In this document: piece after piece, positions 1,739 to 52,921 of the stretch
Layout of the letters: each line of letters begins with the position of its first letter
Numbering within the stretch: the stretch's first letter is position 1
IMG/VR virus record: IMGVR_UViG_2687453424_000001
DNA from: a virus
Lineage: Duplodnaviria; Heunggongvirae; Uroviricota; Caudoviricetes
Length of the DNA stretch: 64,000 nucleotides
Strand: one strand, 5' to 3'
Translations under genes and position numbers: made by a program
Notes under the pieces: generated by a model
Database searches by the model: none
The model's input: the letters and a program-made list of their open reading frames with translations, nothing else
What the model was told of the DNA's origin: nothing

Positions 1739-1849
1739 CTGAACGTGTTTCATGAAACCTATGATCAGCTTTCTTTTGCTCTTGAAACATGGGGCAATAA
1801 TAATACAGAAGAAATTGGAGTGACAATCCTAGAGAGAAAGATCAGAAAC

Positions 1850-2180
1850 CTGAAGCTGGTCTCCAACGTTGACAATGAAAGCATTAGGAACAGGCTTCAC
1901 GGTGATCCACTTGCCATTCTTACAAACTTGGAGTCCAGCTACGTCGTGATCAGGCAGGAGAATGGTCATGGCACCAGGGTCTGAGTGTGAGGAAAGACCT
2001 AGGGTAAGGTCAGGCTGAGGACACTTTGGATAGAAGTTGACCCTTAAACAGGCACCGATGTCTTCTCCACCGAAGGCTTTCTGCAGGTAATCTTCTGGCA
2101 GTCCAAGATTTGTTGACATCGCCTTCAGCAGCCTTCCACACAGTTTTACAACTTCAGCACCATATTCTGCTACCAGTTCC
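1850..2180 (-). CDS. 2-oxoglutarate/Fe(II)-dependent dioxygenase, JOX/JRG21-like; exon 2 of 3
   Basis: Translation (R)ELVAEYGAEVVKLCGRLLKAMSTNLGLPEDYLQKAFGGEDIGACLRVNFYPKCPQPDLTLGLSSHSDPGAMTILLPDHDVAGLQV...VNVGDQLQ with the HxD iron-binding motif (HSD). Acceptor ...tggatgcag|GGAACTGG and donor CAG|gtttct read directly. Exon lengths 503+331+249 = 1083 nt, in frame. Confidence 0.85.
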
Positions 2181-2898
2181 CTGCATCCAGATGTGAACAG
2201 CTAATGATTAGTAAATTCTGCTACCAGTTCCCTGCATGTTTAAGGTTAAAGCTCTCTCCATTCGTACATGTTACATAAAACAGTAGAAAACAAATACCCT
2301 TTTCATTTTCAACAAAGTTGGGTCTACTATTTTGGTCGGGGATTAATATTTTAACCTGAATTTCTTTCTTTTTCCTTCCTTTTTCTGTTGTGAATTGTAA
2401 GCAAACTTGAAAACGACCAACACTCCTTTGCATGTGAAGTTGCAACTAATTAACTTTTGGTAAGGTTAGGAAAGATTCGAGGGTCAAAACCATCTCCATT
2501 GGATCGATGCAGGCCGTGCGATTTGGATATGGATTTGCTTTTTAATCATTCCATTTTGACTTCATGAAATCGTTTCCCTACCCTTAGAATTTTTGTCTTC
2601 TTTAATTATTGCCTTCAAAAGAGGAGATCAAAGTTGATCAATTAACCTCAGTCAATATGGGGGTGTTTATATCGTGAGACATCAGTTGCAACCCGGGCCA
2701 AATCTAAGATTATTGGTCAGTTGACCGAATCCCACTGTCCTAGTTTTTGTTCTCTTGGCAGATGTAAGAAAAGAGAAAGAATCTCTTTTCGTGCAGAGAG
2801 ACAGGAACAAAAAGAAAACATCAACGTAAATAAAACATCATGGTATCACGTTTTGTAAAAAGATAAAATAAACAATGAGGCAGGCAGGGGGTGCAGAC

Positions 2899-3401
2899 CT
2901 GCAAGATGACGGTTGTGCAGGCCACTTGCTTTGATTCCTCGACGAAACCGGCATGAAGTGAAGAAAAAAGTAATCGCTCCAATCCAGAATCGCTCCTTTC
3001 TCTACTCCCAAGCGACTGCCGTACCCTTCATAGGTACTTGGCTCGTTGGCATACCCTTGCTTCACTTCAAGCGGCAGGCTGAAGAATCGACGCCACACCT
3101 CTCGGATGCGCCTCATCAGCTCGTGGCTAACCCCATGGTTCACCGCCTGGAAGAAACCCCAGTCCCGGCACGTGCTGGAGATGCATCTCAAGGTCTCCTC
3201 CCGCAGGGCTAGGTCTTTCCCGAACAGGTTCTGGAGATCAACGACAGGAATGTCAACATGTTCTTCGATTTTGGAACATGTTTTCAGGCCAGGCCTGTCG
3301 GTTAGCGGCTTGATGTATCGCTCTGGAATGGCACGTATCCCACTGTCAGACAGAGACTGAACTCGAACCACCGGCTCAGGCCAACTCTGGAGACAATTCA
3401 T
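2899..3401 (-). CDS. 2-oxoglutarate/Fe(II)-dependent dioxygenase, JOX/JRG21-like; exon 1 of 3 (start codon at 3399-3401)
   Basis: Translation MNCLQSWPEPVVRVQSLSDSGIRAIPERYIKPLTDRP...IPVVDL...CRDWGFFQAVNHGVSHELM...YEGYGSRLGVEKGAILDWSDYFFLHF...KWPAQPSSC(R). This is the typical DIOX_N region and matches the Arabidopsis JOX/JRG21 (At3g55970 / At5g05600) N-terminus as I recall it. There is an in-frame TAG upstream of the ATG. Donor tcttgcag|gtctgc at 2898/2899. Confidence 0.85.
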
Positions 3402-5812: not shown

Positions 5813-8800
5813 NNNNNNNNNNNNNNNNNNNNNNNNNNNNNNNNNNNNNNNNNNNNNNNNNNNNNNNNNNNNNNNNNNNNNNNNNNNNNNNNNNNNNNNN
5901 NNNNNNNNNNNNNNNNNNNNNNNNNNNNNNNNNNNNNNNNNNNNNNNNNNNNNNNNNNNNNNNNNNNNNNNNNNNNNNNNNNNNNNNNNNNNNNNNNNNN
6001 NNNNNNNNNNNNNNNNNNNNNNNNNNNNNNNNNNNNNNNNNNNNNNNNNNNNNNNNNNNNNNNNNNNNNNNNNNNNNNNNNNNNNNNNNNNNNNNNNNNN
6101 NNNNNNNNNNNNNNNNNNNNNNNNNNNNNNNNNNNNNNNNNNNNNNNNNNNNNNNNNNNNNNNNNNNNNNNNNNNNNNNNNNNNNNNNNNNNNNNNNNNN
6201 NNNNNNNNNNNNNNNNNNNNNNNNNNNNNNNNNNNNNNNNNNNNNNNNNNNNNNNNNNNNNNNNNNNNNNNNNNNNNNNNNNNNNNNNNNNNNNNNNNNN
6301 NNNNNNNNNNNNNNNNNNNNNNNNNNNNNNNNNNNNNNNNNNNNNNNNNNNNNNNNNNNNNNNNNNNNNNNNNNNNNNNNNNNNNNNNNNNNNNNNNNNN
6401 NNNNNNNNNNNNNNNNNNNNNNNNNNNNNNNNNNNNNNNNNNNNNNNNNNNNNNNNNNNNNNNNNNNNNNNNNNNNNNNNNNNNNNNNNNNNNNNNNNNN
6501 NNNNNNNNNNNNNNNNNNNNNNNNNNNNNNNNNNNNNNNNNNNNNNNNNNNNNNNNNNNNNNNNNNNNNNNNNNNNNNNNNNNNNNNNNNNNNNNNNNNN
6601 NNNNNNNNNNNNNNNNNNNNNNNNNNNNNNNNNNNNNNNNNNNNNNNNNNNNNNNNNNNNNNNNNNNNNNNNNNNNNNNNNNNNNNNNNNNNNNNNNNNN
6701 NNNNNNNNNNNNNNNNNNNNNNNNNNNNNNNNNNNNNNNNNNNNNNNNNNNNNNNNNNNNNNNNNNNNNNNNNNNNNNNNNNNNNNNNNNNNNNNNNNNN
6801 NNNNNNNNNNNNNNNNNNNNNNNNNNNNNNNNNNNNNNNNNNNNNNNNNNNNNNNNNNNNNNNNNNNNNNNNNNNNNNNNNNNNNNNNNNNNNNNNNNNN
6901 NNNNNNNNNNNNNNNNNNNNNNNNNNNNNNNNNNNNNNNNNNNNNNNNNNNNNNNNNNNNNNNNNNNNNNNNNNNNNNNNNNNNNNNNNNNNNNNNNNNN
7001 NNNNNNNNNNNNNNNNNNNNNNNNNNNNNNNNNNNNNNNNNNNNNNNNNNNNNNNNNNNNNNNNNNNNNNNNNNNNNNNNNNNNNNNNNNNNNNNNNNNN
7101 NNNNNNNNNNNNNNNNNNNNNNNNNNNNNNNNNNNNNNNNNNNNNNNNNNNNNNNNNNNNNNNNNNNNNNNNNNNNNNNNNNNNNNNNNNNNNNNNNNNN
7201 NNNNNNNNNNNNNNNNNNNNNNNNNNNNNNNNNNNNNNNNNNNNNNNNNNNNNNNNNNNNNNNNNNNNNNNNNNNNNNNNNNNNNNNNNNNNNNNNNNNN
7301 NNNNNNNNNNNNNNNNNNNNNNNNNNNNNNNNNNNNNNNNNNNNNNNNNNNNNNNNNNNNNNNNNNNNNNNNNNNNNNNNNNNNNNNNNNNNNNNNNNNN
7401 NNNNNNNNNNNNNNNNNNNNNNNNNNNNNNNNNNNNNNNNNNNNNNNNNNNNNNNNNNNNNNNNNNNNNNNNNNNNNNNNNNNNNNNNNNNNNNNNNNNN
7501 NNNNNNNNNNNNNNNNNNNNNNNNNNNNNNNNNNNNNNNNNNNNNNNNNNNNNNNNNNNNNNNNNNNNNNNNNNNNNNNNNNNNNNNNNNNNNNNNNNNN
7601 NNNNNNNNNNNNNNNNNNNNNNNNNNNNNNNNNNNNNNNNNNNNNNNNNNNNNNNNNNNNNNNNNNNNNNNNNNNNNNNNNNNNNNNNNNNNNNNNNNNN
7701 NNNNNNNNNNNNNNNNNNNNNNNNNNNNNNNNNNNNNNNNNNNNNNNNNNNNNNNNNNNNNNNNNNNNNNNNNNNNNNNNNNNNNNNNNNNNNNNNNNNN
7801 NNNNNNNNNNNNNNNNNNNNNNNNNNNNNNNNNNNNNNNNNNNNNNNNNNNNNNNNNNNNNNNNNNNNNNNNNNNNNNNNNNNNNNNNNNNNNNNNNNNN
7901 NNNNNNNNNNNNNNNNNNNNNNNNNNNNNNNNNNNNNNNNNNNNNNNNNNNNNNNNNNNNNNNNNNNNNNNNNNNNNNNNNNNNNNNNNNNNNNNNNNNN
8001 NNNNNNNNNNNNNNNNNNNNNNNNNNNNNNNNNNNNNNNNNNNNNNNNNNNNNNNNNNNNNNNNNNNNNNNNNNNNNNNNNNNNNNNNNNNNNNNNNNNN
8101 NNNNNNNNNNNNNNNNNNNNNNNNNNNNNNNNNNNNNNNNNNNNNNNNNNNNNNNNNNNNNNNNNNNNNNNNNNNNNNNNNNNNNNNNNNNNNNNNNNNN
8201 NNNNNNNNNNNNNNNNNNNNNNNNNNNNNNNNNNNNNNNNNNNNNNNNNNNNNNNNNNNNNNNNNNNNNNNNNNNNNNNNNNNNNNNNNNNNNNNNNNNN
8301 NNNNNNNNNNNNNNNNNNNNNNNNNNNNNNNNNNNNNNNNNNNNNNNNNNNNNNNNNNNNNNNNNNNNNNNNNNNNNNNNNNNNNNNNNNNNNNNNNNNN
8401 NNNNNNNNNNNNNNNNNNNNNNNNNNNNNNNNNNNNNNNNNNNNNNNNNNNNNNNNNNNNNNNNNNNNNNNNNNNNNNNNNNNNNNNNNNNNNNNNNNNN
8501 NNNNNNNNNNNNNNNNNNNNNNNNNNNNNNNNNNNNNNNNNNNNNNNNNNNNNNNNNNNNNNNNNNNNNNNNNNNNNNNNNNNNNNNNNNNNNNNNNNNN
8601 NNNNNNNNNNNNNNNNNNNNNNNNNNNNNNNNNNNNNNNNNNNNNNNNNNNNNNNNNNNNNNNNNNNNNNNNNNNNNNNNNNNNNNNNNNNNNNNNNNNN
8701 NNNNNNNNNNNNNNNNNNNNNNNNNNNNNNNNNNNNNNNNNNNNNNNNNNNNNNNNNNNNNNNNNNNNNNNNNNNNNNNNNNNNNNNNNNNNNNNNNNNN

Positions 8801-10181
8801 NNNNNNNNNNNNNNNNNNNNNNNNNNNNNNNNNNNNNNNNNNNNNNNNNNNNNNNNNNNNNNNNNNNNNNNNNNNNNNNNNNNNNNNNNNNNNNNNNNNN
8901 NNNNNNNNNNNNNNNNNNNNNNNNNNNNNNNNNNNNNNNNNNNNNNNNNNNNNNNNNNNNNNNNNNNNNNNNNNNNNNNNNNNNNNNNNNNNNNNNNNNN
9001 NNNNNNNNNNNNNNNNNNNNNNNNNNNNNNNNNNNNNNNNNNNNNNNNNNNNNNNNNNNNNNNNNNNNNNNNNNNNNNNNNNNNNNNNNNNNNNNNNNNN
9101 NNNNNNNNNNNNNNNNNNNNNNNNNNNNNNNNNNNNNNNNNNNNNNNNNNNNNNNNNNNNNNNNNNNNNNNNNNNNNNNNNNNNNNNNNNNNNNNNNNNN
9201 NNNNNNNNNNNNNNNNNNNNNNNNNNNNNNNNNNNNNNNNNNNNNNNNNNNNNNNNNNNNNNNNNNNNNNNNNNNNNNNNNNNNNNNNNNNNNNNNNNNN
9301 NNNNNNNNNNNNNNNNNNNNNNNNNNNNNNNNNNNNNNNNNNNNNNNNNNNNNNNNNNNNNNNNNNNNNNNNNNNNNNNNNNNNNNNNNNNNNNNNNNNN
9401 NNNNNNNNNNNNNNNNNNNNNNNNNNNNNNNNNNNNNNNNNNNNNNNNNNNNNNNNNNNNNNNNNNNNNNNNNNNNNNNNNNNNNNNNNNNNNNNNNNNN
9501 NNNNNNNNNNNNNNNNNNNNNNNNNNNNNNNNNNNNNNNNNNNNNNNNNNNNNNNNNNNNNNNNNNNNNNNNNNNNNNNNNNNNNNNNNNNNNNNNNNNN
9601 NNNNNNNNNNNNNNNNNNNNNNNNNNNNNNNNNNNNNNNNNNNNNNNNNNNNNNNNNNNNNNNNNNNNNNNNNNNNNNNNNNNNNNNNNNNNNNNNNNNN
9701 NNNNNNNNNNNNNNNNNNNNNNNNNNNNNNNNNNNNNNNNNNNNNNNNNNNNNNNNNNNNNNNNNNNNNNNNNNNNNNNNNNNNNNNNNNNNNNNNNNNN
9801 NNNNNNNNNNNNNNNNNNNNNNNNNNNNNNNNNNNNNNNNNNNNNNNNNNNNNNNNNNNNNNNNNNNNNNNNNNNNNNNNNNNNNNNNNNNNNNNNNNNN
9901 NNNNNNNNNNNNNNNNNNNNNNNNNNNNNNNNNNNNNNNNNNNNNNNNNNNNNNNNNNNNNNNNNNNNNNNNNNNNNNNNNNNNNNNNNNNNNNNNNNNN
10001 NNNNNNNNNNNNNNNNNNNNNNNNNNNNNNNNNNNNNNNNNNNNNNNNNNNNNNNNNNNNNNNNNNNNNNNNNNNNNNNNNNNNNNNNNNNNNNNNNNNN
10101 NNNNNNNNNNNNNNNNNNNNNNNNNNNNNNNNNNNNNNNNNNNNNNNNNNNNNNNNNNNNNNNNNNNNNNNNNNNNNNNNN
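5813..10181. other. assembly gap (N run, 4369 bp)
   Basis: Uninterrupted N. Confidence 1.
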
Positions 10182-10527
10182 TTTTTCATTGACTTTAAAA
10201 AAAAAAAACAACCAAATTTTATAGTATCACAAAGGCCAACACATGTCTTCTTCTATAAAGCGGTTGTGGTGGCCATATACTTATTTATTGCTTAATAGGT
10301 CCATGCATCTCATTTGATATGGATGGGTCACCTGACGTGAAAAACATTCATTTTTGGTGTAGCTTTAGGCCGACATGATCTGCACCCTTATTTATTAATT
10401 CTTTTTAATCACTTAAAAGTTTTGATTCCATGATTTTTCATTTTCCAAATTTCCATTTTTACGTAAAAGATCATGAATTAGAAATCATCTTTTGTTACAG
10501 AATCAATGTATCCTAACGATTGTTCAA

Positions 10528-10905
10528 GAAAAAAATTAGGTCAAAATACCTAAAAAGTCCCTATATTCATGTATTTTGTTCAATTTAATCCATGTACTCA
10601 AAATCGTAACATTTTTATCCTTTAATTTTGAAAATTGTTTCAATTTAGTCCCTCCTTCTAACTACATCTAATTTTACCTTTTAAATTAAAAGATGACATC
10701 AATAATGACATCAACGCTGACGTGACATATTTTGATGACGTGGTACCTTCACGATGACGTGGCATGACACGTGATACCGACATGATGACTGGGCAGTGCC
10801 ATCATTGGAACTAAATTTTGTGCTACGTCATAAGAATTAAATTGAATAAAAATATATAGTATAGAGACTAAATTGAACATAAATGAAATGTTGAGGGACT
10901 AAATT
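10528..10905. repeat. left arm of gap-spanning inverted repeat (TIR-like)
   Basis: The reverse complement of 14444-14819 aligns along this arm, e.g. ...gttgagggactaaatt here versus aatttagtccctcaac at 14444, and ttaggtcaaaatacctaaaaagtccc here versus gacttttcaagtattttgactaa near 14800. I estimate 75-80% identity by eye. Confidence 0.8.
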
Positions 10906-10943
10906 AAAAAATATTTAAAAAATAGTAAATCTTTAAGTAGATG

Positions 10944-13900
10944 NNNNNNNNNNNNNNNNNNNNNNNNNNNNNNNNNNNNNNNNNNNNNNNNNNNNNNNNN
11001 NNNNNNNNNNNNNNNNNNNNNNNNNNNNNNNNNNNNNNNNNNNNNNNNNNNNNNNNNNNNNNNNNNNNNNNNNNNNNNNNNNNNNNNNNNNNNNNNNNNN
11101 NNNNNNNNNNNNNNNNNNNNNNNNNNNNNNNNNNNNNNNNNNNNNNNNNNNNNNNNNNNNNNNNNNNNNNNNNNNNNNNNNNNNNNNNNNNNNNNNNNNN
11201 NNNNNNNNNNNNNNNNNNNNNNNNNNNNNNNNNNNNNNNNNNNNNNNNNNNNNNNNNNNNNNNNNNNNNNNNNNNNNNNNNNNNNNNNNNNNNNNNNNNN
11301 NNNNNNNNNNNNNNNNNNNNNNNNNNNNNNNNNNNNNNNNNNNNNNNNNNNNNNNNNNNNNNNNNNNNNNNNNNNNNNNNNNNNNNNNNNNNNNNNNNNN
11401 NNNNNNNNNNNNNNNNNNNNNNNNNNNNNNNNNNNNNNNNNNNNNNNNNNNNNNNNNNNNNNNNNNNNNNNNNNNNNNNNNNNNNNNNNNNNNNNNNNNN
11501 NNNNNNNNNNNNNNNNNNNNNNNNNNNNNNNNNNNNNNNNNNNNNNNNNNNNNNNNNNNNNNNNNNNNNNNNNNNNNNNNNNNNNNNNNNNNNNNNNNNN
11601 NNNNNNNNNNNNNNNNNNNNNNNNNNNNNNNNNNNNNNNNNNNNNNNNNNNNNNNNNNNNNNNNNNNNNNNNNNNNNNNNNNNNNNNNNNNNNNNNNNNN
11701 NNNNNNNNNNNNNNNNNNNNNNNNNNNNNNNNNNNNNNNNNNNNNNNNNNNNNNNNNNNNNNNNNNNNNNNNNNNNNNNNNNNNNNNNNNNNNNNNNNNN
11801 NNNNNNNNNNNNNNNNNNNNNNNNNNNNNNNNNNNNNNNNNNNNNNNNNNNNNNNNNNNNNNNNNNNNNNNNNNNNNNNNNNNNNNNNNNNNNNNNNNNN
11901 NNNNNNNNNNNNNNNNNNNNNNNNNNNNNNNNNNNNNNNNNNNNNNNNNNNNNNNNNNNNNNNNNNNNNNNNNNNNNNNNNNNNNNNNNNNNNNNNNNNN
12001 NNNNNNNNNNNNNNNNNNNNNNNNNNNNNNNNNNNNNNNNNNNNNNNNNNNNNNNNNNNNNNNNNNNNNNNNNNNNNNNNNNNNNNNNNNNNNNNNNNNN
12101 NNNNNNNNNNNNNNNNNNNNNNNNNNNNNNNNNNNNNNNNNNNNNNNNNNNNNNNNNNNNNNNNNNNNNNNNNNNNNNNNNNNNNNNNNNNNNNNNNNNN
12201 NNNNNNNNNNNNNNNNNNNNNNNNNNNNNNNNNNNNNNNNNNNNNNNNNNNNNNNNNNNNNNNNNNNNNNNNNNNNNNNNNNNNNNNNNNNNNNNNNNNN
12301 NNNNNNNNNNNNNNNNNNNNNNNNNNNNNNNNNNNNNNNNNNNNNNNNNNNNNNNNNNNNNNNNNNNNNNNNNNNNNNNNNNNNNNNNNNNNNNNNNNNN
12401 NNNNNNNNNNNNNNNNNNNNNNNNNNNNNNNNNNNNNNNNNNNNNNNNNNNNNNNNNNNNNNNNNNNNNNNNNNNNNNNNNNNNNNNNNNNNNNNNNNNN
12501 NNNNNNNNNNNNNNNNNNNNNNNNNNNNNNNNNNNNNNNNNNNNNNNNNNNNNNNNNNNNNNNNNNNNNNNNNNNNNNNNNNNNNNNNNNNNNNNNNNNN
12601 NNNNNNNNNNNNNNNNNNNNNNNNNNNNNNNNNNNNNNNNNNNNNNNNNNNNNNNNNNNNNNNNNNNNNNNNNNNNNNNNNNNNNNNNNNNNNNNNNNNN
12701 NNNNNNNNNNNNNNNNNNNNNNNNNNNNNNNNNNNNNNNNNNNNNNNNNNNNNNNNNNNNNNNNNNNNNNNNNNNNNNNNNNNNNNNNNNNNNNNNNNNN
12801 NNNNNNNNNNNNNNNNNNNNNNNNNNNNNNNNNNNNNNNNNNNNNNNNNNNNNNNNNNNNNNNNNNNNNNNNNNNNNNNNNNNNNNNNNNNNNNNNNNNN
12901 NNNNNNNNNNNNNNNNNNNNNNNNNNNNNNNNNNNNNNNNNNNNNNNNNNNNNNNNNNNNNNNNNNNNNNNNNNNNNNNNNNNNNNNNNNNNNNNNNNNN
13001 NNNNNNNNNNNNNNNNNNNNNNNNNNNNNNNNNNNNNNNNNNNNNNNNNNNNNNNNNNNNNNNNNNNNNNNNNNNNNNNNNNNNNNNNNNNNNNNNNNNN
13101 NNNNNNNNNNNNNNNNNNNNNNNNNNNNNNNNNNNNNNNNNNNNNNNNNNNNNNNNNNNNNNNNNNNNNNNNNNNNNNNNNNNNNNNNNNNNNNNNNNNN
13201 NNNNNNNNNNNNNNNNNNNNNNNNNNNNNNNNNNNNNNNNNNNNNNNNNNNNNNNNNNNNNNNNNNNNNNNNNNNNNNNNNNNNNNNNNNNNNNNNNNNN
13301 NNNNNNNNNNNNNNNNNNNNNNNNNNNNNNNNNNNNNNNNNNNNNNNNNNNNNNNNNNNNNNNNNNNNNNNNNNNNNNNNNNNNNNNNNNNNNNNNNNNN
13401 NNNNNNNNNNNNNNNNNNNNNNNNNNNNNNNNNNNNNNNNNNNNNNNNNNNNNNNNNNNNNNNNNNNNNNNNNNNNNNNNNNNNNNNNNNNNNNNNNNNN
13501 NNNNNNNNNNNNNNNNNNNNNNNNNNNNNNNNNNNNNNNNNNNNNNNNNNNNNNNNNNNNNNNNNNNNNNNNNNNNNNNNNNNNNNNNNNNNNNNNNNNN
13601 NNNNNNNNNNNNNNNNNNNNNNNNNNNNNNNNNNNNNNNNNNNNNNNNNNNNNNNNNNNNNNNNNNNNNNNNNNNNNNNNNNNNNNNNNNNNNNNNNNNN
13701 NNNNNNNNNNNNNNNNNNNNNNNNNNNNNNNNNNNNNNNNNNNNNNNNNNNNNNNNNNNNNNNNNNNNNNNNNNNNNNNNNNNNNNNNNNNNNNNNNNNN
13801 NNNNNNNNNNNNNNNNNNNNNNNNNNNNNNNNNNNNNNNNNNNNNNNNNNNNNNNNNNNNNNNNNNNNNNNNNNNNNNNNNNNNNNNNNNNNNNNNNNNN

Positions 13901-14443
13901 NNNNNNNNNNNNNNNNNNNNNNNNNNNNNNNNNNNNNNNNNNNNNNNNNNNNNNNNNNNNNNNNNNNNNNNNNNNNNNNNNNNNNNNNNNNNNNNNNNNN
14001 NNNNNNNNNNNNNNNNNNNNNNNNNNNNNNNNNNNNNNNNNNNNNNNNNNNNNNNNNNNNNNNNNNNNNNNNNNNNNNNNNNNNNNNNNNNNNNNNNNNN
14101 NNNNNNNNNNNNNNNNNNNNNNNNNNNNNNNNNNNNNNNNNNNNNNNNNNNNNNNNNNNNNNNNNNNNNNNNNNNNNNNNNNNNNNNNNNNNNNNNNNNN
14201 NNNNNNNNNNNNNNNNNNNNNNNNNNNNNNNNNNNNNNNNNNNNNNNNNNNNNNNNNNNNNNNNNNNNNNNNNNNNNNNNNNNNNNNNNNNNNNNNNNNN
14301 NNNNNNNNNNNNNNNNNNNNNNNNNNNNNNNNNNNNNNNNNNNNNNNNNNNNNNNNNNNNNNNNNNNNNNNNNNNNNNNNNNNNNNNNNNNNNNNNNNNN
14401 NNNNNNNNNNNNNNNNNNNNNNNNNNNNNNNNNNNNNNNNNNN
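10944..14443. other. assembly gap (N run, 3500 bp)
   Basis: Uninterrupted N. Confidence 1.
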
Positions 14444-14819
14444 AATTTAGTCCCTCAACATCTCAATTTTATTTAATTTAGTCTCTATATTATATATTTT
14501 TATTCAATCTACTCCTCATAATGTGACACAAAAAATTTTTTTGAAAATTTTTTGATTTGCCACGTTAGCACGTTGATGTCACGTCATCAAGTCGATGCCA
14601 CGTGACATACCACGTCATCAAAATATGTCGCATCAATGCTGATGTCACTATTGACATCATCTTTTTAACTGCAAAATTGGATGTTGTTAGAGAGAAAGAC
14701 TAAATTGAAGCAATTATTAAAATTAAAGGACTAAAATGTTACAATTTTGAGTATAAAGATTAAATTAAACAAAATGTATGGTACAAAGACTTTTCAAGTA
14801 TTTTGACTAAAAAATTAAG
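14444..14819. repeat. right arm of gap-spanning inverted repeat (TIR-like)
   Basis: Inverted copy of 10528-10905 (see that entry). Contains the mirrored cluster of acgtg/cacgtg/tgacgtg motifs. Confidence 0.8.
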
Positions 14820-15654: not shown

Positions 15655-15985
15655 ACGAATAACCTTTTATCGAAGATATTTTCCTGAATCCGCCCATCAT
15701 ACTGGTGAGACTCGAGGTATTCTCTCACCTAGGGAATTATCCAAGAAATCCGCCTTCGCAAATTCAACGAATAATTCTCATCATCGGAGTTATCATACGT
15801 TTTTCTTTAAAAATAATGTTTTCGTGCACAATAGACCTAATATGAGTCAAAACCATTTATTAAAGATATTTTTCGAGTCCTCTCATCATACTGGTGGGAT
15901 CTTGGGACACATCTTCACTTAGGGAACTTTTCGAGGGATACCCGCCTTCGTAAGATCCTAGGAAGATCCCATCATCGGGGCTTAA
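15655..15985. repeat. two-copy tandem repeat (unit about 190 bp)
   Basis: Units at about 15661-15790 and 15850-15985 share ...atcgaagatattttc...catcatactggtg(a/g)ga...tagggaa...ccgccttcg...catcatcgg(a/g)g... An adjacent GC-rich island at 15230-15490 sits in an AT-rich context and may be a TE fragment. Confidence 0.6.
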
Positions 15986-16097: not shown

Positions 16098-17085
16098 TAT
16101 ATTACTATTTAAAGTAGGGACCGATAATCTGATCTAATTGATTAATTTGTTCGTACAATTATTCTCTTTTAAGAGTATGCATTGGAAATTAAAAATTCAT
16201 CAGACAATATAAATTTGACAATTTATTTTCGTTTTTAAGAATTTTTTGATAAATATCTCATCTTATACCGTATGTACCGAGCTCAAGACTCGAAATTCAA
16301 CTCATTGTATTCTTGCAATTGGATCTTGTAGCAAGCAAAGGAGTGGAACATTTTGCATTGCAAAGGGAAGTCCGACAGTAAAACAAAGCTCTTGGAGTAA
16401 AAGTCCAAAGAAGCTTGCAGACAAACAAAAAAGGAAACTCATGCAACGTACATGTACTACTATTTATAGTGTCATATATTCTTTTTTTTTTAAGAATATT
16501 TTACGATACAACAGTTAATTAAGAGAGACGAATTGTATCATTCACTTGAAAGATTTATTTGTTATTCTACAATGTTTTATTTTTCGGGTTTTTGTTATCT
16601 TTATGAATCTTAAGATTTAGACTCGATTTCTCTTGAAGATCATTATATGTTAATTGGTTTTTGAAGTAATAAACTCTATTAAATGTAAAGATGTAAACCT
16701 TTGACAAATGATAATCTAACTAATTAGGGAAAGAATAGGTATTAAAAGAAAAAGAAAAGCACAACACTGCACTGCACTGCTAATGTTTACTCTAGCTTCT
16801 ACATGTTAATCAATTACAAGAACAAGTCCAGACAAGACATATTTCTATATGTTACAAATTCAAAGCTCTCTCTTGTCAAAAGATAAGAGCATCGATTTTT
16901 TCTTTAATTTCTAATTAATATGAACATTAGTGAGTATTTTTGCTATTATTGTTTTACAATTTTTTCAACTCTCTTTTTTGACCTTTTAACATTCCTATAT
17001 CAATATGGTGGACTGAAAATTGGATGACCATGTGGTTGTATGATTGATTATTGTTTCGTTTACTTATAAATGTATGTGATGAAAA
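16098..17085. repeat. direct repeat copy A (about 1 kb), paired with 24200-25213
   Basis: Long collinear identity with copy B, about 93% by eye, running from attactatttaaagtag... to ...cgtttacttat(a/t)aatgt(a/g)t(g/a)tgatgaaa. Confidence 0.85.
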
Positions 17086-17733: not shown

Positions 17734-20700
17734 NNNNNNNNNNNNNNNNNNNNNNNNNNNNNNNNNNNNNNNNNNNNNNNNNNNNNNNNNNNNNNNNNNN
17801 NNNNNNNNNNNNNNNNNNNNNNNNNNNNNNNNNNNNNNNNNNNNNNNNNNNNNNNNNNNNNNNNNNNNNNNNNNNNNNNNNNNNNNNNNNNNNNNNNNNN
17901 NNNNNNNNNNNNNNNNNNNNNNNNNNNNNNNNNNNNNNNNNNNNNNNNNNNNNNNNNNNNNNNNNNNNNNNNNNNNNNNNNNNNNNNNNNNNNNNNNNNN
18001 NNNNNNNNNNNNNNNNNNNNNNNNNNNNNNNNNNNNNNNNNNNNNNNNNNNNNNNNNNNNNNNNNNNNNNNNNNNNNNNNNNNNNNNNNNNNNNNNNNNN
18101 NNNNNNNNNNNNNNNNNNNNNNNNNNNNNNNNNNNNNNNNNNNNNNNNNNNNNNNNNNNNNNNNNNNNNNNNNNNNNNNNNNNNNNNNNNNNNNNNNNNN
18201 NNNNNNNNNNNNNNNNNNNNNNNNNNNNNNNNNNNNNNNNNNNNNNNNNNNNNNNNNNNNNNNNNNNNNNNNNNNNNNNNNNNNNNNNNNNNNNNNNNNN
18301 NNNNNNNNNNNNNNNNNNNNNNNNNNNNNNNNNNNNNNNNNNNNNNNNNNNNNNNNNNNNNNNNNNNNNNNNNNNNNNNNNNNNNNNNNNNNNNNNNNNN
18401 NNNNNNNNNNNNNNNNNNNNNNNNNNNNNNNNNNNNNNNNNNNNNNNNNNNNNNNNNNNNNNNNNNNNNNNNNNNNNNNNNNNNNNNNNNNNNNNNNNNN
18501 NNNNNNNNNNNNNNNNNNNNNNNNNNNNNNNNNNNNNNNNNNNNNNNNNNNNNNNNNNNNNNNNNNNNNNNNNNNNNNNNNNNNNNNNNNNNNNNNNNNN
18601 NNNNNNNNNNNNNNNNNNNNNNNNNNNNNNNNNNNNNNNNNNNNNNNNNNNNNNNNNNNNNNNNNNNNNNNNNNNNNNNNNNNNNNNNNNNNNNNNNNNN
18701 NNNNNNNNNNNNNNNNNNNNNNNNNNNNNNNNNNNNNNNNNNNNNNNNNNNNNNNNNNNNNNNNNNNNNNNNNNNNNNNNNNNNNNNNNNNNNNNNNNNN
18801 NNNNNNNNNNNNNNNNNNNNNNNNNNNNNNNNNNNNNNNNNNNNNNNNNNNNNNNNNNNNNNNNNNNNNNNNNNNNNNNNNNNNNNNNNNNNNNNNNNNN
18901 NNNNNNNNNNNNNNNNNNNNNNNNNNNNNNNNNNNNNNNNNNNNNNNNNNNNNNNNNNNNNNNNNNNNNNNNNNNNNNNNNNNNNNNNNNNNNNNNNNNN
19001 NNNNNNNNNNNNNNNNNNNNNNNNNNNNNNNNNNNNNNNNNNNNNNNNNNNNNNNNNNNNNNNNNNNNNNNNNNNNNNNNNNNNNNNNNNNNNNNNNNNN
19101 NNNNNNNNNNNNNNNNNNNNNNNNNNNNNNNNNNNNNNNNNNNNNNNNNNNNNNNNNNNNNNNNNNNNNNNNNNNNNNNNNNNNNNNNNNNNNNNNNNNN
19201 NNNNNNNNNNNNNNNNNNNNNNNNNNNNNNNNNNNNNNNNNNNNNNNNNNNNNNNNNNNNNNNNNNNNNNNNNNNNNNNNNNNNNNNNNNNNNNNNNNNN
19301 NNNNNNNNNNNNNNNNNNNNNNNNNNNNNNNNNNNNNNNNNNNNNNNNNNNNNNNNNNNNNNNNNNNNNNNNNNNNNNNNNNNNNNNNNNNNNNNNNNNN
19401 NNNNNNNNNNNNNNNNNNNNNNNNNNNNNNNNNNNNNNNNNNNNNNNNNNNNNNNNNNNNNNNNNNNNNNNNNNNNNNNNNNNNNNNNNNNNNNNNNNNN
19501 NNNNNNNNNNNNNNNNNNNNNNNNNNNNNNNNNNNNNNNNNNNNNNNNNNNNNNNNNNNNNNNNNNNNNNNNNNNNNNNNNNNNNNNNNNNNNNNNNNNN
19601 NNNNNNNNNNNNNNNNNNNNNNNNNNNNNNNNNNNNNNNNNNNNNNNNNNNNNNNNNNNNNNNNNNNNNNNNNNNNNNNNNNNNNNNNNNNNNNNNNNNN
19701 NNNNNNNNNNNNNNNNNNNNNNNNNNNNNNNNNNNNNNNNNNNNNNNNNNNNNNNNNNNNNNNNNNNNNNNNNNNNNNNNNNNNNNNNNNNNNNNNNNNN
19801 NNNNNNNNNNNNNNNNNNNNNNNNNNNNNNNNNNNNNNNNNNNNNNNNNNNNNNNNNNNNNNNNNNNNNNNNNNNNNNNNNNNNNNNNNNNNNNNNNNNN
19901 NNNNNNNNNNNNNNNNNNNNNNNNNNNNNNNNNNNNNNNNNNNNNNNNNNNNNNNNNNNNNNNNNNNNNNNNNNNNNNNNNNNNNNNNNNNNNNNNNNNN
20001 NNNNNNNNNNNNNNNNNNNNNNNNNNNNNNNNNNNNNNNNNNNNNNNNNNNNNNNNNNNNNNNNNNNNNNNNNNNNNNNNNNNNNNNNNNNNNNNNNNNN
20101 NNNNNNNNNNNNNNNNNNNNNNNNNNNNNNNNNNNNNNNNNNNNNNNNNNNNNNNNNNNNNNNNNNNNNNNNNNNNNNNNNNNNNNNNNNNNNNNNNNNN
20201 NNNNNNNNNNNNNNNNNNNNNNNNNNNNNNNNNNNNNNNNNNNNNNNNNNNNNNNNNNNNNNNNNNNNNNNNNNNNNNNNNNNNNNNNNNNNNNNNNNNN
20301 NNNNNNNNNNNNNNNNNNNNNNNNNNNNNNNNNNNNNNNNNNNNNNNNNNNNNNNNNNNNNNNNNNNNNNNNNNNNNNNNNNNNNNNNNNNNNNNNNNNN
20401 NNNNNNNNNNNNNNNNNNNNNNNNNNNNNNNNNNNNNNNNNNNNNNNNNNNNNNNNNNNNNNNNNNNNNNNNNNNNNNNNNNNNNNNNNNNNNNNNNNNN
20501 NNNNNNNNNNNNNNNNNNNNNNNNNNNNNNNNNNNNNNNNNNNNNNNNNNNNNNNNNNNNNNNNNNNNNNNNNNNNNNNNNNNNNNNNNNNNNNNNNNNN
20601 NNNNNNNNNNNNNNNNNNNNNNNNNNNNNNNNNNNNNNNNNNNNNNNNNNNNNNNNNNNNNNNNNNNNNNNNNNNNNNNNNNNNNNNNNNNNNNNNNNNN

Positions 20701-22537
20701 NNNNNNNNNNNNNNNNNNNNNNNNNNNNNNNNNNNNNNNNNNNNNNNNNNNNNNNNNNNNNNNNNNNNNNNNNNNNNNNNNNNNNNNNNNNNNNNNNNNN
20801 NNNNNNNNNNNNNNNNNNNNNNNNNNNNNNNNNNNNNNNNNNNNNNNNNNNNNNNNNNNNNNNNNNNNNNNNNNNNNNNNNNNNNNNNNNNNNNNNNNNN
20901 NNNNNNNNNNNNNNNNNNNNNNNNNNNNNNNNNNNNNNNNNNNNNNNNNNNNNNNNNNNNNNNNNNNNNNNNNNNNNNNNNNNNNNNNNNNNNNNNNNNN
21001 NNNNNNNNNNNNNNNNNNNNNNNNNNNNNNNNNNNNNNNNNNNNNNNNNNNNNNNNNNNNNNNNNNNNNNNNNNNNNNNNNNNNNNNNNNNNNNNNNNNN
21101 NNNNNNNNNNNNNNNNNNNNNNNNNNNNNNNNNNNNNNNNNNNNNNNNNNNNNNNNNNNNNNNNNNNNNNNNNNNNNNNNNNNNNNNNNNNNNNNNNNNN
21201 NNNNNNNNNNNNNNNNNNNNNNNNNNNNNNNNNNNNNNNNNNNNNNNNNNNNNNNNNNNNNNNNNNNNNNNNNNNNNNNNNNNNNNNNNNNNNNNNNNNN
21301 NNNNNNNNNNNNNNNNNNNNNNNNNNNNNNNNNNNNNNNNNNNNNNNNNNNNNNNNNNNNNNNNNNNNNNNNNNNNNNNNNNNNNNNNNNNNNNNNNNNN
21401 NNNNNNNNNNNNNNNNNNNNNNNNNNNNNNNNNNNNNNNNNNNNNNNNNNNNNNNNNNNNNNNNNNNNNNNNNNNNNNNNNNNNNNNNNNNNNNNNNNNN
21501 NNNNNNNNNNNNNNNNNNNNNNNNNNNNNNNNNNNNNNNNNNNNNNNNNNNNNNNNNNNNNNNNNNNNNNNNNNNNNNNNNNNNNNNNNNNNNNNNNNNN
21601 NNNNNNNNNNNNNNNNNNNNNNNNNNNNNNNNNNNNNNNNNNNNNNNNNNNNNNNNNNNNNNNNNNNNNNNNNNNNNNNNNNNNNNNNNNNNNNNNNNNN
21701 NNNNNNNNNNNNNNNNNNNNNNNNNNNNNNNNNNNNNNNNNNNNNNNNNNNNNNNNNNNNNNNNNNNNNNNNNNNNNNNNNNNNNNNNNNNNNNNNNNNN
21801 NNNNNNNNNNNNNNNNNNNNNNNNNNNNNNNNNNNNNNNNNNNNNNNNNNNNNNNNNNNNNNNNNNNNNNNNNNNNNNNNNNNNNNNNNNNNNNNNNNNN
21901 NNNNNNNNNNNNNNNNNNNNNNNNNNNNNNNNNNNNNNNNNNNNNNNNNNNNNNNNNNNNNNNNNNNNNNNNNNNNNNNNNNNNNNNNNNNNNNNNNNNN
22001 NNNNNNNNNNNNNNNNNNNNNNNNNNNNNNNNNNNNNNNNNNNNNNNNNNNNNNNNNNNNNNNNNNNNNNNNNNNNNNNNNNNNNNNNNNNNNNNNNNNN
22101 NNNNNNNNNNNNNNNNNNNNNNNNNNNNNNNNNNNNNNNNNNNNNNNNNNNNNNNNNNNNNNNNNNNNNNNNNNNNNNNNNNNNNNNNNNNNNNNNNNNN
22201 NNNNNNNNNNNNNNNNNNNNNNNNNNNNNNNNNNNNNNNNNNNNNNNNNNNNNNNNNNNNNNNNNNNNNNNNNNNNNNNNNNNNNNNNNNNNNNNNNNNN
22301 NNNNNNNNNNNNNNNNNNNNNNNNNNNNNNNNNNNNNNNNNNNNNNNNNNNNNNNNNNNNNNNNNNNNNNNNNNNNNNNNNNNNNNNNNNNNNNNNNNNN
22401 NNNNNNNNNNNNNNNNNNNNNNNNNNNNNNNNNNNNNNNNNNNNNNNNNNNNNNNNNNNNNNNNNNNNNNNNNNNNNNNNNNNNNNNNNNNNNNNNNNNN
22501 NNNNNNNNNNNNNNNNNNNNNNNNNNNNNNNNNNNNN
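17734..22537. other. assembly gap (N run, 4804 bp)
   Basis: Uninterrupted N. Confidence 1.
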
Positions 22538-23039
22538 GAGTTCTTTTTTTAAATGGATTCCATGCATAAGGTGTTTTTGACTATAAGCTTTTTTATAATT
22601 TGAACTGTTTTTTACCAAGAGAATTAAAATTTGGACAAAATTACCTTTAATGAAATCGACCCATTTATTTGGCTCCTCACCTTAACCCAAAACCTATTAA
22701 TGGGTCAAGTATGTTTAAGTTTGCGTCTCAAGCCGACTCATATTCTTTAAGCTTTTCTTGCCAAACTATTCATTTCTAGAGTATTCTTTACTAAAAAAAA
22801 AAGTTTAAGCATTTTGAGCATTTTACAGCAGTTTTTGATACACAAAGAAAATCTGTGAGTGTTTTGAGTATTTTTAAGCATTTTGGAGTAATTTTTAGTA
22901 TATGAAGAAAAACTTTTGAACATTTTGAGCATTATTTGTCAAGTAGGCATATTCGTTAATTATGTTATTAAATAGAATATGGTGTAACGTTTAAAGTTAT
23001 TGATCTTATTAAATGGAATGCAGTAGTTTTGATGATTTT

Positions 23040-23365
23040 TAGAATTACGTGATTAGTTTTTAGGTATTGCGTGACTAACTTTAGATATTGCATAACTGAC
23101 TTTGGGTATTGCGTGACTAGTTTTTGATATGACATTGCGTAATTAGTGTTTGACAAAGCATTACGAGACTAGTTGATAGACATTACGTGACTAGTTAATA
23201 AGGCGTTGCATGACTAGTTAGTAAGGCATTGTGTGACTAAGGCATTATTTAAAAATTAGTCACGTAATACCTAAAACTAATTACGTAATACCTAAAAATC
23301 AATCACGCAGTGATTAAATCACATAATGTCTAAAAATCGGTCTCGCAGTACTTAAAAATCAGTCT
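23040..23365. repeat. palindromic minisatellite array (about 22-bp unit, core attgcgtgactagtt)
   Basis: About nine forward units (attacgtgattagttttt, attgcgtgactaacttt, attgcgtgactagttttt, attacgtgactagttaat, ...) up to about 23245, then about four reverse-complement units (ttagtcacgtaatacctaaaa, taattacgtaatacctaaaa, ...) after a centre near 23250. Confidence 0.8.
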
Positions 23366-24199: not shown

Positions 24200-25213
24200 A
24201 ATATTACTATTTAAAGTAGAGACTGATAATCCAATCTAATTGATTAATTTGTTTGTTCAATTATTCCCTTTTAAGAGTATGCATTGGAAATTAATAATTC
24301 GTCAGACAATATAAATTGGACAATTTATTTTTATTTTTTAGAATTTTTCGATAAATATCTCATCTTATACCATATGTACTGAGCGCAAGACTCGAAATTC
24401 AACTTATTGTATTCTTGCAGTGGGAGCTTGTAGCAAGCAAAGGAGTGAAACATTTTGCATTGCAAAGGGAAGTCCGATACTAAAACAAAGCTCTTGGAGT
24501 AAAAGTCCCATACCCTTCCATAGTCGTCCTTCACGCACCCCATCCCCAATGAATTTTGCAGACAAACAAAAAAGGAAACTCATACAACGTACGTGTACCA
24601 CTATTTATAGTGTCATATATACTTTTTTAATTTTGTTAGGATACAACAGCTAATTAAAAGAGATGAATTTTATGATTCACTTGAAAGATTTACTTGTCAT
24701 TCTATAATGTTTTATCTTTTGGGTTTTTGTTATCTTTATGAATCGTAAGACTTAGACTCGATTTCTCTTGAAGATCATTATATGTTAATTGGTTTTTGAA
24801 GTAATAACTCTATTAAATGTAAAGATGTAAACCTTTGAAAAATGATAATCTAACTAATTAGGGAAAGGATAGGAATTAAAAGAAAAGGAAAAAGAAAAGC
24901 ACTGCACTGCTATTGTTTACTCTAGCTTCTACATGTTAATCAATTACAAGAACATGGCCAGACAGGACATATTTCTACATGTTACAAATTCAAAGCTCTC
25001 TCTTGTCAAAAGATGAGAGCATCGATTTTTTCTTTAATTTCTAATTAATATGAACATTAGTGAGTATTTTTGCTATTATTGTTTTACAATTTTTTCAACT
25101 CTCTTTTTTGACCTTTTAACATTTCTATATCAATATGGTGGACTGAAAATTGGATGACCACGTGGTTGTATGATTGATTCTTGTTTCGTTTACTTATTAA
25201 TGTGTATGATGAA
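24200..25213. repeat. direct repeat copy B (about 1 kb), paired with 16098-17085
   Basis: Same sequence family as copy A. Carries an extra insertion of about 45 bp (catacccttccatagtcgtccttcacgcaccccatccccaatgaat) relative to A. Confidence 0.85.
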
Positions 25214-27900: not shown

Positions 27901-28050
27901 CTACTCGTTCCCCAAGTTCAGAGAACCATCCTTCATCAGCTTCATGCTTAGACTGTTGAATCTCCCTCTTGAGTAATGTCGAGAAGCCTTTCTCCAATCT
28001 GTACCAGTTTTCATCATGGCTGTGAATTCATCATAGCTGATGCGTCCATC
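27901..28050 (-). CDS. CPK13: calcium-dependent protein kinase (CPK13-like); exon 7 of 7 (includes stop)
   Basis: Translation [49 protein letters not shown], containing EF-hand 4 ([12 protein letters not shown] across the exon 6/7 junction). Acceptor tgtaaatgcag|GATGGACGC. TAG stop at 27901-27903. Confidence 0.9.
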
Positions 28051-28130
28051 CTGCATTTACAAAAGAATTGTCAGTCAAATTGAAACATGCTTAATAAATT
28101 TATTAGTGACAAAAACATACAGGTCATCAC

Positions 28131-52340: not shown

Positions 52341-52486
52341 TGCTGGTATTTCTCTCTCCATCTTTTCTTCTTTTCTTTTCTCTTATTTTTTTTTTGGCTG
52401 TTTGAATGATAATCTTTTTGGTGGGTGCAAAAGGGAAGTCTCGGAAATCCTGTTTGCTTTGTCTGATTTGCTTGTGGTAGTTGGTC

Positions 52487-52750: not shown

Positions 52751-52921
52751 GTAATCTAATATTCGAATTTTCCTTTTACCCTTTTTAGACGCAACGAATT
52801 ACGTTTCCAGGTAGCTTGTTTCTATTTTTGTTTAGCTAAAATAAATATGTATAACGAAAACCCTATTATCTATATATCACTGACATGGCAAGTGTTTATT
52901 TAATTGCCTGGTGATGTTCAG

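What the first reader, a model, noticed from the sequence alone, without database searches (positions are those of the whole stretch)
10528..14819. Sized assembly gap sits exactly between two ~380-bp inverted-repeat arms
The sequence on either side of the 3.5-kb gap is a mutual reverse complement, including mirrored clusters of ACGTG / TGACGTG motifs. That suggests either a long-TIR DNA transposon (MULE-like or foldback) with unassembled interior, or a large palindrome that broke the assembly. Either way the gap is probably not random sequence, and its size estimate may be wrong if the arms actually abut.
Basis: seen in the sequence. Interest (0 to 1): 0.55.

Follow-up and report, generated by a model that had tools for sequence, protein, structure and literature searches.

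The report
Old Mutator-like transposon spanning a gap
The two mirror-image stretches either side of the gap are most likely the long inverted ends of one old, decayed Mutator-like DNA transposon in the cacao genome whose middle was never assembled, which is an ordinary feature of plant genomes.

Summary
Window 10540-10905 aligns to the reverse complement of 14444-14807 (372 columns, 76% identity; 82% without gaps; E = 3e-67), and both arms carry mirrored TGACGTG/ACGTG clusters. The window is Theobroma cacao nuclear DNA in a very gappy scaffold: 7 sized gaps, 44% N.

The new result is a perfect 9-bp direct repeat, AAAAAATTA, at 10530-10538 and 14809-14817. It lies just outside the arms, one base beyond each end of the aligned homology. 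Its chance probability is 3e-4 to 3e-2, depending on the null. Long inverted ends of at least 366 bp plus a 9-bp target-site duplication are the signature of a Mutator-like (MULE/foldback-type) DNA transposon inserted once, spanning 10539-14808.

The arms have diverged (K2P 0.215, transitions 46 to transversions 18), so the copy is an old fossil. Each arm is modular: oppositely oriented TTCAATTTAGTCCCT motifs surround a TGAC(G/A)T array.

The arms do not directly abut, because 38 nt of non-palindromic interior are visible at 10906-10943. I could not read the gap or find other family copies, so the interior (transposase, captured DNA or a nested repeat) is unknown. The idea that a palindrome broke the assembly is not supported. 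This is an ordinary finding of low interest.

The parts
10530..10538 (+). Left copy of the 9-bp target-site duplication, AAAAAATTA
   Evidence: Identical 9-mer at 14809-14817, immediately outside both ends of the element, one base beyond the aligned homology. Chance of a direct repeat of 9 nt or more so placed: 3.2e-4 for random site pairs, 2.1e-3 for AT-rich flanks, 2.9e-2 if both flanks hold an A6 run.
10539..10905 (+). Left terminal inverted repeat (arm). Its terminus reads GGTCAAAATACCTAAAAAGTCCC.
   Evidence: blastn against the reverse complement of 14444-14807: 76.1% over 372 columns, E = 3e-67. Alignment; 81.8% identity excluding gaps.
10579..10653 (+). Two subterminal copies of the motif TTCAATTTAGTCCCT in forward orientation (10579-10593, 10639-10653)
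   Evidence: Motif scan with up to 3 mismatches: 7 of the 8 window hits lie in the two arms.
10691..10790 (+). Array of about seven TGAC(G/A)T-core repeats, including 3 copies of TGACGTG and 2 of GATGACGTGG (ACGT-core cluster), in the left arm
   Evidence: TGACGTG count is 6 observed against 1.1 expected in the window. TRF finds a short 12-nt period at 10693-10715.
10832..10908 (-). Three copies of the same TTCAATTTAGTCCCT motif in reverse orientation (10832-10846, 10863-10877, 10894-10908), with a TATA-like stretch AAAAATATATAGTATAG between them
   Evidence: These give the arm its own foldback potential: the repeat finder I7, I9, I12, I17 and ssDNA fold z = -4.10.
10906..10943 (+). Visible start of the element's interior, or a continuation of the TIR whose partner is hidden in the gap
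   Evidence: This stretch does not read back into the complementary arm sequence AATTTAGTCCCTCAAC with which the right contig begins, so the arms do not directly abut.
10944..14443 (.). Sized assembly gap (3500 N), the unassembled interior of the element
   Evidence: Content unknown.
14444..14808 (-). Right terminal inverted repeat (arm), cut off at its inner end by the gap. On the minus strand its terminus reads AGTCAAAATACTTGAAAAGTC.
   Evidence: It carries the mirrored ACGT-core cluster at about 14561-14617 and motif copies at 14472-14486 and 14695-14709. ssDNA fold z = -4.42.
14809..14817 (+). Right copy of the 9-bp target-site duplication, AAAAAATTA

Best explanation
A single non-LTR, cut-and-paste DNA transposon of the Mutator superfamily (a MULE with long, modular, foldback-like terminal inverted repeats) inserted once into an A/T-rich intergenic site of the Theobroma cacao genome. 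The site lies about 7 kb upstream of a 2-oxoglutarate dioxygenase gene. Shown here: two inverted arms of at least 366 bp at 10539-10905 and 14444-14808, bounded by a perfect 9-bp direct repeat AAAAAATTA. Inferred from what is known of MULEs: a MURA-type DDE transposase bound the arms, probably at the repeated subterminal motifs (TTCAATTTAGTCCCT and/or the TGAC(G/A)T array). It excised the element and made a 9-nt staggered cut at the target, and repair of that cut created the duplication. The arms have since diverged (K2P 0.215, transitions exceeding transversions 2.6 to 1). The copy is therefore an immobile fossil, roughly 8-27 My old if the arms were identical at insertion. The interior (nominally 3.5 kb) was not assembled. 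It may hold a decayed mudrA-like gene, captured host fragments (Pack-MULE), or a nested repeat. The gap is one of many in a low-contiguity scaffold and was not caused by the inverted repeat.
For: The inverted homology is highly significant and unique in the window. A perfect 9-bp direct repeat lies at 10530-10538 and 14809-14817, just outside both arms and one base beyond the aligned homology, with empirical chance 3.2e-4 to 2.9e-2. The 9-mer occurs only 7 times on the + strand in 35.6 kb. A 9-nt duplication with long modular TIRs is what the literature gives for MULEs and foldback-type MULEs: MuTAnT, and FARE1 and Jittery as cited there (PMC4486113), and Tm1 (PMC3169594). The arms show a modular build of repeated motifs in both orientations plus a TGAC(G/A)T array, and each arm folds alone (z = -4.1 and -4.4). 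The duplication links the small 762-bp island contig to the right-hand contig, which supports the scaffold's order and orientation. A same-family MITE landing independently within about 4 kb in inverted orientation has a prior of roughly 0.5-1%. This is my arithmetic from 13 families and 10,364 copies in 327 Mb of cacao (P-MITE, PMC3964958). Mutator elements are present in cacao and abundant in Malvaceae.
Against: No transposase and no interior sequence were seen, because of the gap. No second family copy could be retrieved, so mobility, family boundaries and the TSD length rest on this one locus (searches were empty). The duplication lies in A-rich, low-complexity DNA. Under the strictest null, with both flanks holding an A6 run, chance is 3%. 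The first base of the two termini differs (G against A). With arms at about 82% identity, an intact 9/9 duplication is expected only about 17% of the time if the arms were identical at insertion (0.82^9). Each arm has some hairpin potential of its own, which a free-standing MITE would also show.
Confidence: 0.65

Rival explanations
1. Two independent insertions of a short (about 370-400 bp), partly palindromic non-autonomous element (MITE) lie in opposite orientations about 3.5 kb apart. The gap then holds ordinary host or other repeat DNA.
For: Each arm alone folds better than its shuffles (z = -4.10 and -4.42). Each contains the same motif in both orientations around a central cluster. The arms are only 76-82% identical, which is typical of separate members of an old family. 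A-rich strings resembling the left flank (AAAAAATAT at 10906 and AAAAAATAG at 10921, each 7/9) follow the left arm.
Against: The perfect 9-bp direct repeat lies at the outer ends of the pair, not around one arm. The left arm's two ends are not inverted repeats of each other: GGTCAAAATACC at the outer end against ...GGGACTAAATT or ...AATATTTA at the inner end. The outermost 17 nt are shared by both arms but have no partner inside the arm. Self-reverse-complement alignment of each arm is only about 2 SD above shuffles. The prior for a same-family copy this close and inverted is about 0.5-1% (numbers).
Confidence: 0.14
2. This is a foldback-type non-autonomous element made almost entirely of its two arms (total about 0.8-1 kb). 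The 3.5-kb gap size is a scaffolding overestimate.
For: Foldback MULEs such as MuTAnT (292 bp with 144-bp TIRs) are built this way. The gap size is a suspiciously round 3500, unlike the other six gaps. The 762-bp island contig is small relative to the inferred library span.
Against: At least 38 nt of the left contig past the homology do not turn back into the other arm, and the two contigs share no overlap. Scaffolders normally give small or minimal N runs to near-abutting contigs. No data here contradict the size estimate.
Confidence: 0.1
3. This is an assembly artefact. The 762-bp island contig (10182-10943) is misplaced, misoriented or a haplotype variant, so the two arms are not really a convergent pair at one locus. 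Alternatively it is a non-transposon inverted segmental duplication or palindrome.
For: The island is flanked by gaps on both sides, and the scaffold is 44% N.
Against: The contig's unique flank (10182-10529) has no homology to the right-hand flank, and 76% identity is far too low for alleles. The 9-bp duplication joins the island's flank to the right contig's flank in exactly the present order and orientation. The homology ends sharply next to that duplication, as at a transposon terminus.
Confidence: 0.06

Closest known systems
MuTAnT and AutoMuTAnT, Mutator-like elements of Medicago truncatula (PMC4486113)
   Same: Long TIRs built from modules that give a foldback structure, 9-nt target-site duplication, insertion into A/T-rich DNA near genes, and many decayed copies.
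   Different: MuTAnT TIRs are about 144 bp, start with GGGG and target (TA)n microsatellites. Here the arms are at least 366 bp, start with GGTC or AGTC, and the target is AAAAAATTA. No sequence similarity was tested or expected, and no autonomous partner was identified here.
FARE1 foldback elements of Arabidopsis (Windsor and Waddell 2000), now classed as MULEs; described here only as cited in PMC4486113 and PMC3169594
   Same: Long, internally repetitive inverted ends, and classification with Mutator-like elements.
   Different: The FARE paper itself could not be read, so the detailed comparison rests on secondary citation. FARE1 is about 1 kb by my recollection, whereas this element is nominally 4.27 kb.
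MuDR/Mu and Jittery of maize (autonomous MULEs)
   Same: Long TIRs (about 215 bp in MuDR from general knowledge; 181 bp in Jittery), a 9-bp duplication, and a total size of about 4-5 kb, comparable to the nominal 4,270 bp here. MuDR's TIRs contain inward-reading promoters (general knowledge). Each arm here has an ACGT-element cluster followed about 80 bp further inward by a TATA-like stretch.
   Different: No mudrA-like coding sequence was seen, because the interior is a gap. The arms are longer and far more diverged from each other. The promoter analogy is inference only.
Tm1 Mutator/foldback family of root-knot nematodes (PMC3169594)
   Same: Composite TIRs of variable length with internal short repeats, 9-bp target-site duplications, MITE-like and transposase-encoding members, and short asymmetric non-matching bases at the extreme termini.
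   Different: Animal host and the Phantom subclass. Its TIR repeats are tandem 14-mers, not inverted motif pairs.

Membership tests
Mutator superfamily (MULE) | Target-site duplication of 9-11 bp flanking the element | tested here: met
   Perfect 9-bp AAAAAATTA at 10530-10538 and 14809-14817. Chance is 3.2e-4 to 2.9e-2. This rests on a single locus in low-complexity DNA.
Mutator superfamily (MULE) | Long terminal inverted repeats (about 100 bp to several hundred bp) | tested here: met
   At least 366 bp, 76% identity with gaps and 82% without, E = 3e-67.
Mutator superfamily (MULE) | MURA-type DDE transposase (MULE domain) in the element, or in an autonomous relative sharing the TIRs | not testable with these tools
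   The interior is 3500 N.
Mutator superfamily (MULE) | Multiple genomic copies with different flanks, each with its own 9-bp duplication | not testable with these tools
   There is no other copy in the window. A six-frame protein search, two metagenome scans and one prokaryote-genome scan found nothing. The single IMG/VR hit is a chance 19-mer.
Foldback-type elements (FARE/MuTAnT-like) | TIRs built from repeated modules, giving hairpin potential | tested here: met
   TTCAATTTAGTCCCT occurs twice forward and three times reversed in the left arm, around a TGAC(G/A)T array. Folds give z = -4.1 and -4.4. The palindromy is at motif level only: self-alignment is about 2 SD above shuffles.
Foldback-type elements (FARE/MuTAnT-like) | TIRs make up most of the element, with little or no interior | tested here: inconclusive
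   The nominal interior is 3.5 kb plus 38 nt. The arms do not directly abut. The gap size itself is unverified.
MITE (two separate copies) | Each copy under 800 bp has matching inverted termini at its own two ends | tested here: not met
   The left arm's outer 17 nt (GGTCAAAATACCTAAAA) have no inverted partner at 10890-10943 (3/17 matches in register; sequence). The internal pairs I7, I9, I12 and I17 imply inconsistent end points.
MITE (two separate copies) | Each copy has its own target-site duplication | tested here: inconclusive
   The best candidates after the left arm match the left flank at only 7/9 (10906-10914 and 10921-10929). That level is common by chance in A-run flanks: 7 or more matched in about 12.5% of cases. 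The inner end of the right copy lies in the gap.
hAT superfamily | 8-bp duplication with short (about 5-27 bp) TIRs | tested here: not met
   The arms are at least 366 bp. An 8-bp reading with TAG termini gives only 6/8 identity, and the maximal exact repeat is 9 bp.
PIF/Harbinger (Tourist), Tc1/mariner (Stowaway), CACTA | TTA/TAA or TA duplication; CACTA termini with a 3-bp duplication | tested here: not met
   The bases flanking any plausible terminus do not form matching TWA or TA repeats, and the termini read GGTC/AGTC, not CACTA.
LTR retrotransposon | Direct long terminal repeats with TG...CA ends | tested here: not met
   The arms are inverted, not direct, and have no TG...CA ends.

The most novel reading that the evidence does not exclude
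The arms may be more than decaying transposon ends. Each carries a dense, conserved array of bZIP-type ACGT elements (TGACGTGG, a G-box/C-box hybrid) followed about 80 bp further inward by a TATA-like stretch. The arms could therefore act as hormone- or stress-responsive promoters or enhancers reading into the element, or as a cis-regulatory module that the family spread near genes. Here the copy lies about 7 kb upstream of a jasmonate-induced-oxygenase-like 2OG dioxygenase gene. Alternatively, the convergent arms could form a hairpin-RNA/siRNA locus.
Probability: 0.08. Interest if true: 0.35.

Novelty: new member of a known kind. Interest (0 to 1): 0.12.

Why it matters
It matters mainly for housekeeping. 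The result explains one scaffold gap as a transposon interior. The target-site duplication also supports the placement and orientation of a 762-bp island contig. The result shows how to tell a transposon from an assembly-breaking palindrome. For cacao biology it adds one old Mutator-like insertion between a 2OG dioxygenase gene and a CDPK gene. The ACGT-element array in the arms is a modest lead for transposon-borne cis-regulatory motifs, but nothing here suggests a new mechanism.

Tried and rejected
1. Reading the gap in a better assembly. The window is T. cacao: the window ORF equals P0001, and its 90% cluster holds KAK6290647.1 from the Pound 7 chromosome. The only Logan contig is 1.6 kb, at 99.9% identity to the window.

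2. Exact look-ups of five ORFs in or beside the arms: none is on record.

3. A six-frame translation of both arms and their flanks as a 2,169-aa query against 5.8 billion proteins, to catch ORFs called on other family copies: nothing at E <= 1.

4. A CDPK exon query, to reach the locus from the right: no cacao representative came back. The gene's stop codon (about 27904) is in any case more than 10 kb from the arm.

5. Exact-pattern scans with conserved 22-mer and 33-mer arm segments in JGI metagenomes and in GTDB genomes: no hits. An 18-mer in IMG/VR gave one hit with no homology beyond 19 nt, which is chance.

6. A literature search for the terminal and subterminal motifs as text: only unrelated primers and binding sites. 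A search for the run accession DRR396126 found nothing.

7. Rfam on the whole window: no family.

8. TRF on the arms: only trivial two-copy repeats.

9. Rejected readings: a haplotig or misoriented contig, an LTR pair, and hAT, PIF or CACTA elements (see the membership table).
Full report
**Setting.** The window is plant nuclear DNA with seven sized N-runs making up 28,388 of 64,000 bases (44%). The gaps are at 5813-10181, 10944-14443 (exactly 3500 N), 17734-22537, 32549-37313, 38406-39563, 41067-45703 and 57235-62389. The left arm sits on a 762-bp island contig (10182-10943) that lies between two gaps.

The species is Theobroma cacao. Exon 1 of a 2-oxoglutarate dioxygenase gene (window 2838-3401, minus strand) is identical to a database ORF. 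That ORF's 90% cluster contains KAK6290647.1, POUND7_002188 [Theobroma cacao]. A Logan contig from run DRR396126 matches the window at 99.9%. The other genes are a CDPK13-like kinase (minus strand, last coding exon at 27904-28056) and a trihelix-type ORF pair at 52481-53458.

**Check of the observation.** blastn of the two flanking contigs against the window gives one non-self hit: 10540-10905 against 14807-14444 on the opposite strand, 76.1% identity over 372 columns, E = 3e-67. A contig-against-contig search confirms that it is the only such pair. The repeat finder resolves it into collinear blocks of 81-90% complementarity. A global alignment gives 287 matches, 46 transitions, 18 transversions and 30 gap columns, which is 81.8% identity excluding gaps.

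TGACGTG occurs six times in the window against 1.1 expected (no shuffle of 100 reaches six). Five of the six are in the arms, three on the + strand in the left arm and two on the - strand in the right. ACGTG/CACGT occurs 11 times in about 0.77 kb of arms, out of 53 in 35.6 kb of sequence.

The arms are about 366 bp. Only the right arm touches the gap, and the left contig has 38 further bases (10906-10943).

**What lies at the ends.** The inverted homology stops sharply at 10540 and 14807. One base further out on each side lies the same 9-mer in direct orientation: AAAAAATTA at 10530-10538 and at 14809-14817. The element is therefore 10539-14808. Its termini read GGTCAAAATAC on the left and AGTCAAAATAC on the right (reverse complement).

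I estimated how often a direct repeat of at least 9 nt falls within 2 nt of both of two chosen boundaries, drawing random position pairs from this window. The rate was 3.2e-4 for any pair, 2.1e-3 when both flanks are at least 80% A+T, and 2.9e-2 when both flanks contain an A6 run. On the + strand the 9-mer occurs 7 times in 35.6 kb. So the repeat is unlikely to be chance, though it sits in low-complexity DNA. Readings as an 8-bp (hAT), 3-bp (PIF, CACTA) or 2-bp (Tc1/mariner) duplication fit worse or not at all.

**Anatomy of the arms.** Each arm is modular, and the right arm mirrors the left. From the outside inward, the left arm contains:
- the 17-nt terminus;
- two forward copies of a 15-nt motif, TTCAATTTAGTCCCT (10579, 10639);
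- an array of about seven TGAC(G/A)T cores at 12-19 nt spacing (10691-10790), which includes the TGACGTG and GATGACGTGG copies;
- three reverse copies of the 15-nt motif (10832, 10863, 10894), with an AAAAATATATAGTATAG stretch among them.

Seven of the eight window matches to the 15-nt motif (up to 3 mismatches) are in the arms.

Because the motif occurs in both orientations, each arm alone folds better than its shuffles as single-stranded DNA (z = -4.10 and -4.42). This is motif-level symmetry, not a clean hairpin. The internal inverted pairs imply inconsistent symmetry centres (I7/I9/I12/I17). The self-reverse-complement alignment score is only about 2 SD above shuffles.

**One element or two.** I weighed a single long-TIR element against two independent copies of a short MITE.

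Evidence for a single element:
- The 9-bp duplication brackets the pair, not one arm.
- The left arm's outermost 17 nt are shared with the right arm but have no inverted partner at the left arm's own inner end. The left arm therefore fails the MITE criterion of matching termini.
- An independent same-family insertion within about 4 kb and in inverted orientation is a priori rare. P-MITE lists 13 MITE families with 10,364 copies in 327 Mb of cacao, or about one copy of an average family per 400 kb. That gives roughly 0.5-1%, by my arithmetic assuming random placement.

Evidence for two copies:
- The arms are only 76-82% identical.
- Each arm has foldback potential.
- Weak 7/9 look-alikes of the flank string follow the left arm.

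I put the single-element reading at about 0.65-0.75 including its foldback variant, and the two-MITE reading at about 0.14.

**Superfamily.** Long TIRs plus a 9-bp duplication point to Mutator-like elements. The literature I could read states that 9-nt duplications are typical of MULEs. It also states that families with long modular foldback TIRs (MuTAnT, Jittery, FARE1) are classed as MULEs (PMC4486113). Tm1 combines composite TIRs, 9-bp duplications and a MULE transposase (PMC3169594). Mutator elements are recorded in cacao (PMC3726317) and are abundant in another Malvaceae genome (PMC11470940).

The defining protein could not be examined, because the interior is the gap. Membership is therefore met on two structural criteria and untested on the transposase and on copy number.

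**Mechanism and age.** The sequence shows inverted arms, a duplication and sharp termini. The rest is inferred from MULE biology: a MURA-type DDE transposase binds the arms, excises the element, and inserts it at a 9-nt staggered cut whose repair yields the duplication. The repeated 15-nt motif and the TGAC(G/A)T array are the natural candidates for binding sites.

A second possibility comes by analogy with MuDR, whose TIRs hold inward promoters (general knowledge). On that reading the ACGT-element cluster and the TATA-like stretch about 80 bp further inward would form a promoter. Neither idea was testable here.

The divergence between the arms (K2P 0.215, ts:tv 2.6) corresponds to about 8, 15 or 27 My at 1.3e-8, 7e-9 or 4e-9 substitutions per site per year, if the arms were identical at insertion. 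Either way the copy is an old, presumably immobile fossil. With 82% identity per site, an intact 9/9 duplication has a probability of about 0.17. That is acceptable, but it is a reminder that the arms may never have been identical.

**The gap.** The claim that the inverted repeat caused the gap is not supported. Gaps occur every 5-9 kb throughout this scaffold, and arms that differ at one site in five do not collapse in assembly.

The arms do not directly abut. The 38 nt after the left arm (AAAAAATATTTAAAAAATAGTAAATCTTTAAGTAGATG) do not turn back into AATTTAGTCCCTCAAC, with which the right contig begins.

The size of 3500 is oddly round compared with the other gaps (4369, 4804, 4765, 1158, 4637, 5155) and is unverified. 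A second gap (17734-22537) also sits between repeats, here a 1,026-bp direct pair at 88.7% identity (16099-17084 and 24201-25214). This fits the general idea that gaps in this scaffold tend to be interiors of repeated elements.

**What could not be done.** I could not read the gap or collect other family members. The attempts and their outcomes are listed under Tried and rejected. The tools' DNA collections do not include plant genomes.

**Verdict.** It is best explained as an ordinary, ancient Mutator-like long-TIR transposon whose interior is unassembled. It is a new member of a known kind at most, and quite possibly already present in cacao repeat libraries that I could not query. Interest is low.

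Noticed in passing
window 16099-17084 and 24201-25214: A 1,026-bp direct repeat at 88.7% identity flanks another sized gap (17734-22537). It may be the two ends of a second repeated element (an LTR-like pair, about 9.1 kb in total) or a local duplication. The blast boundaries do not show obvious TG...CA ends.
   Followed up: partly
window 1829-2119 (minus strand) versus protein P0121 (KAK6290647.1, POUND7_002188): The deposited 296-aa Pound 7 gene model skips about 63 residues that the window encodes in exon 2: [63 protein letters not shown]. These include the HxD iron-binding motif of 2OG dioxygenases. The model is probably mis-spliced.
   Followed up: no
window 10944-14443 and the other six gaps: The gap in the finding is exactly 3500 N, while the other gaps have non-round sizes (4369, 4804, 4765, 1158, 4637, 5155). 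Five of the seven gaps are 4.4-5.2 kb. N makes up 44% of the window, which is unusually high for published cacao assemblies.
   Followed up: no
window 63262-63428 and 63427-63592: A tandem duplication of a 167-bp unit at 87% identity overlaps the start of an ORF that runs off the window end.
   Followed up: no
window 15661-15787 and 15851-15978; 23033-23091 and 23242-23301; 62731-62786: Further small repeats: a 130-bp direct pair (74%), a 60-bp inverted pair 150 bp apart (85%, possibly a small MITE), and a 56-bp palindrome next to the last gap.
   Followed up: no
window 10333-10339: The sixth TGACGTG of the window lies in the unique flank 200 bp outside the left arm. Its context (CTGACGTGAAAAACATTCAT) is 75% like the first arm copy (CTGACGTGACATATTTTGAT). 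This may be chance or a remnant of an older insertion.
   Followed up: no
L002 5843-5861 (IMGVR_UViG_3300048573_000395): An exact 19-nt match to the inner arm motif ATGTTGAGGGACTAAATT(A) occurs in a viral contig. There is no homology beyond it, so it is a chance hit.
   Followed up: yes
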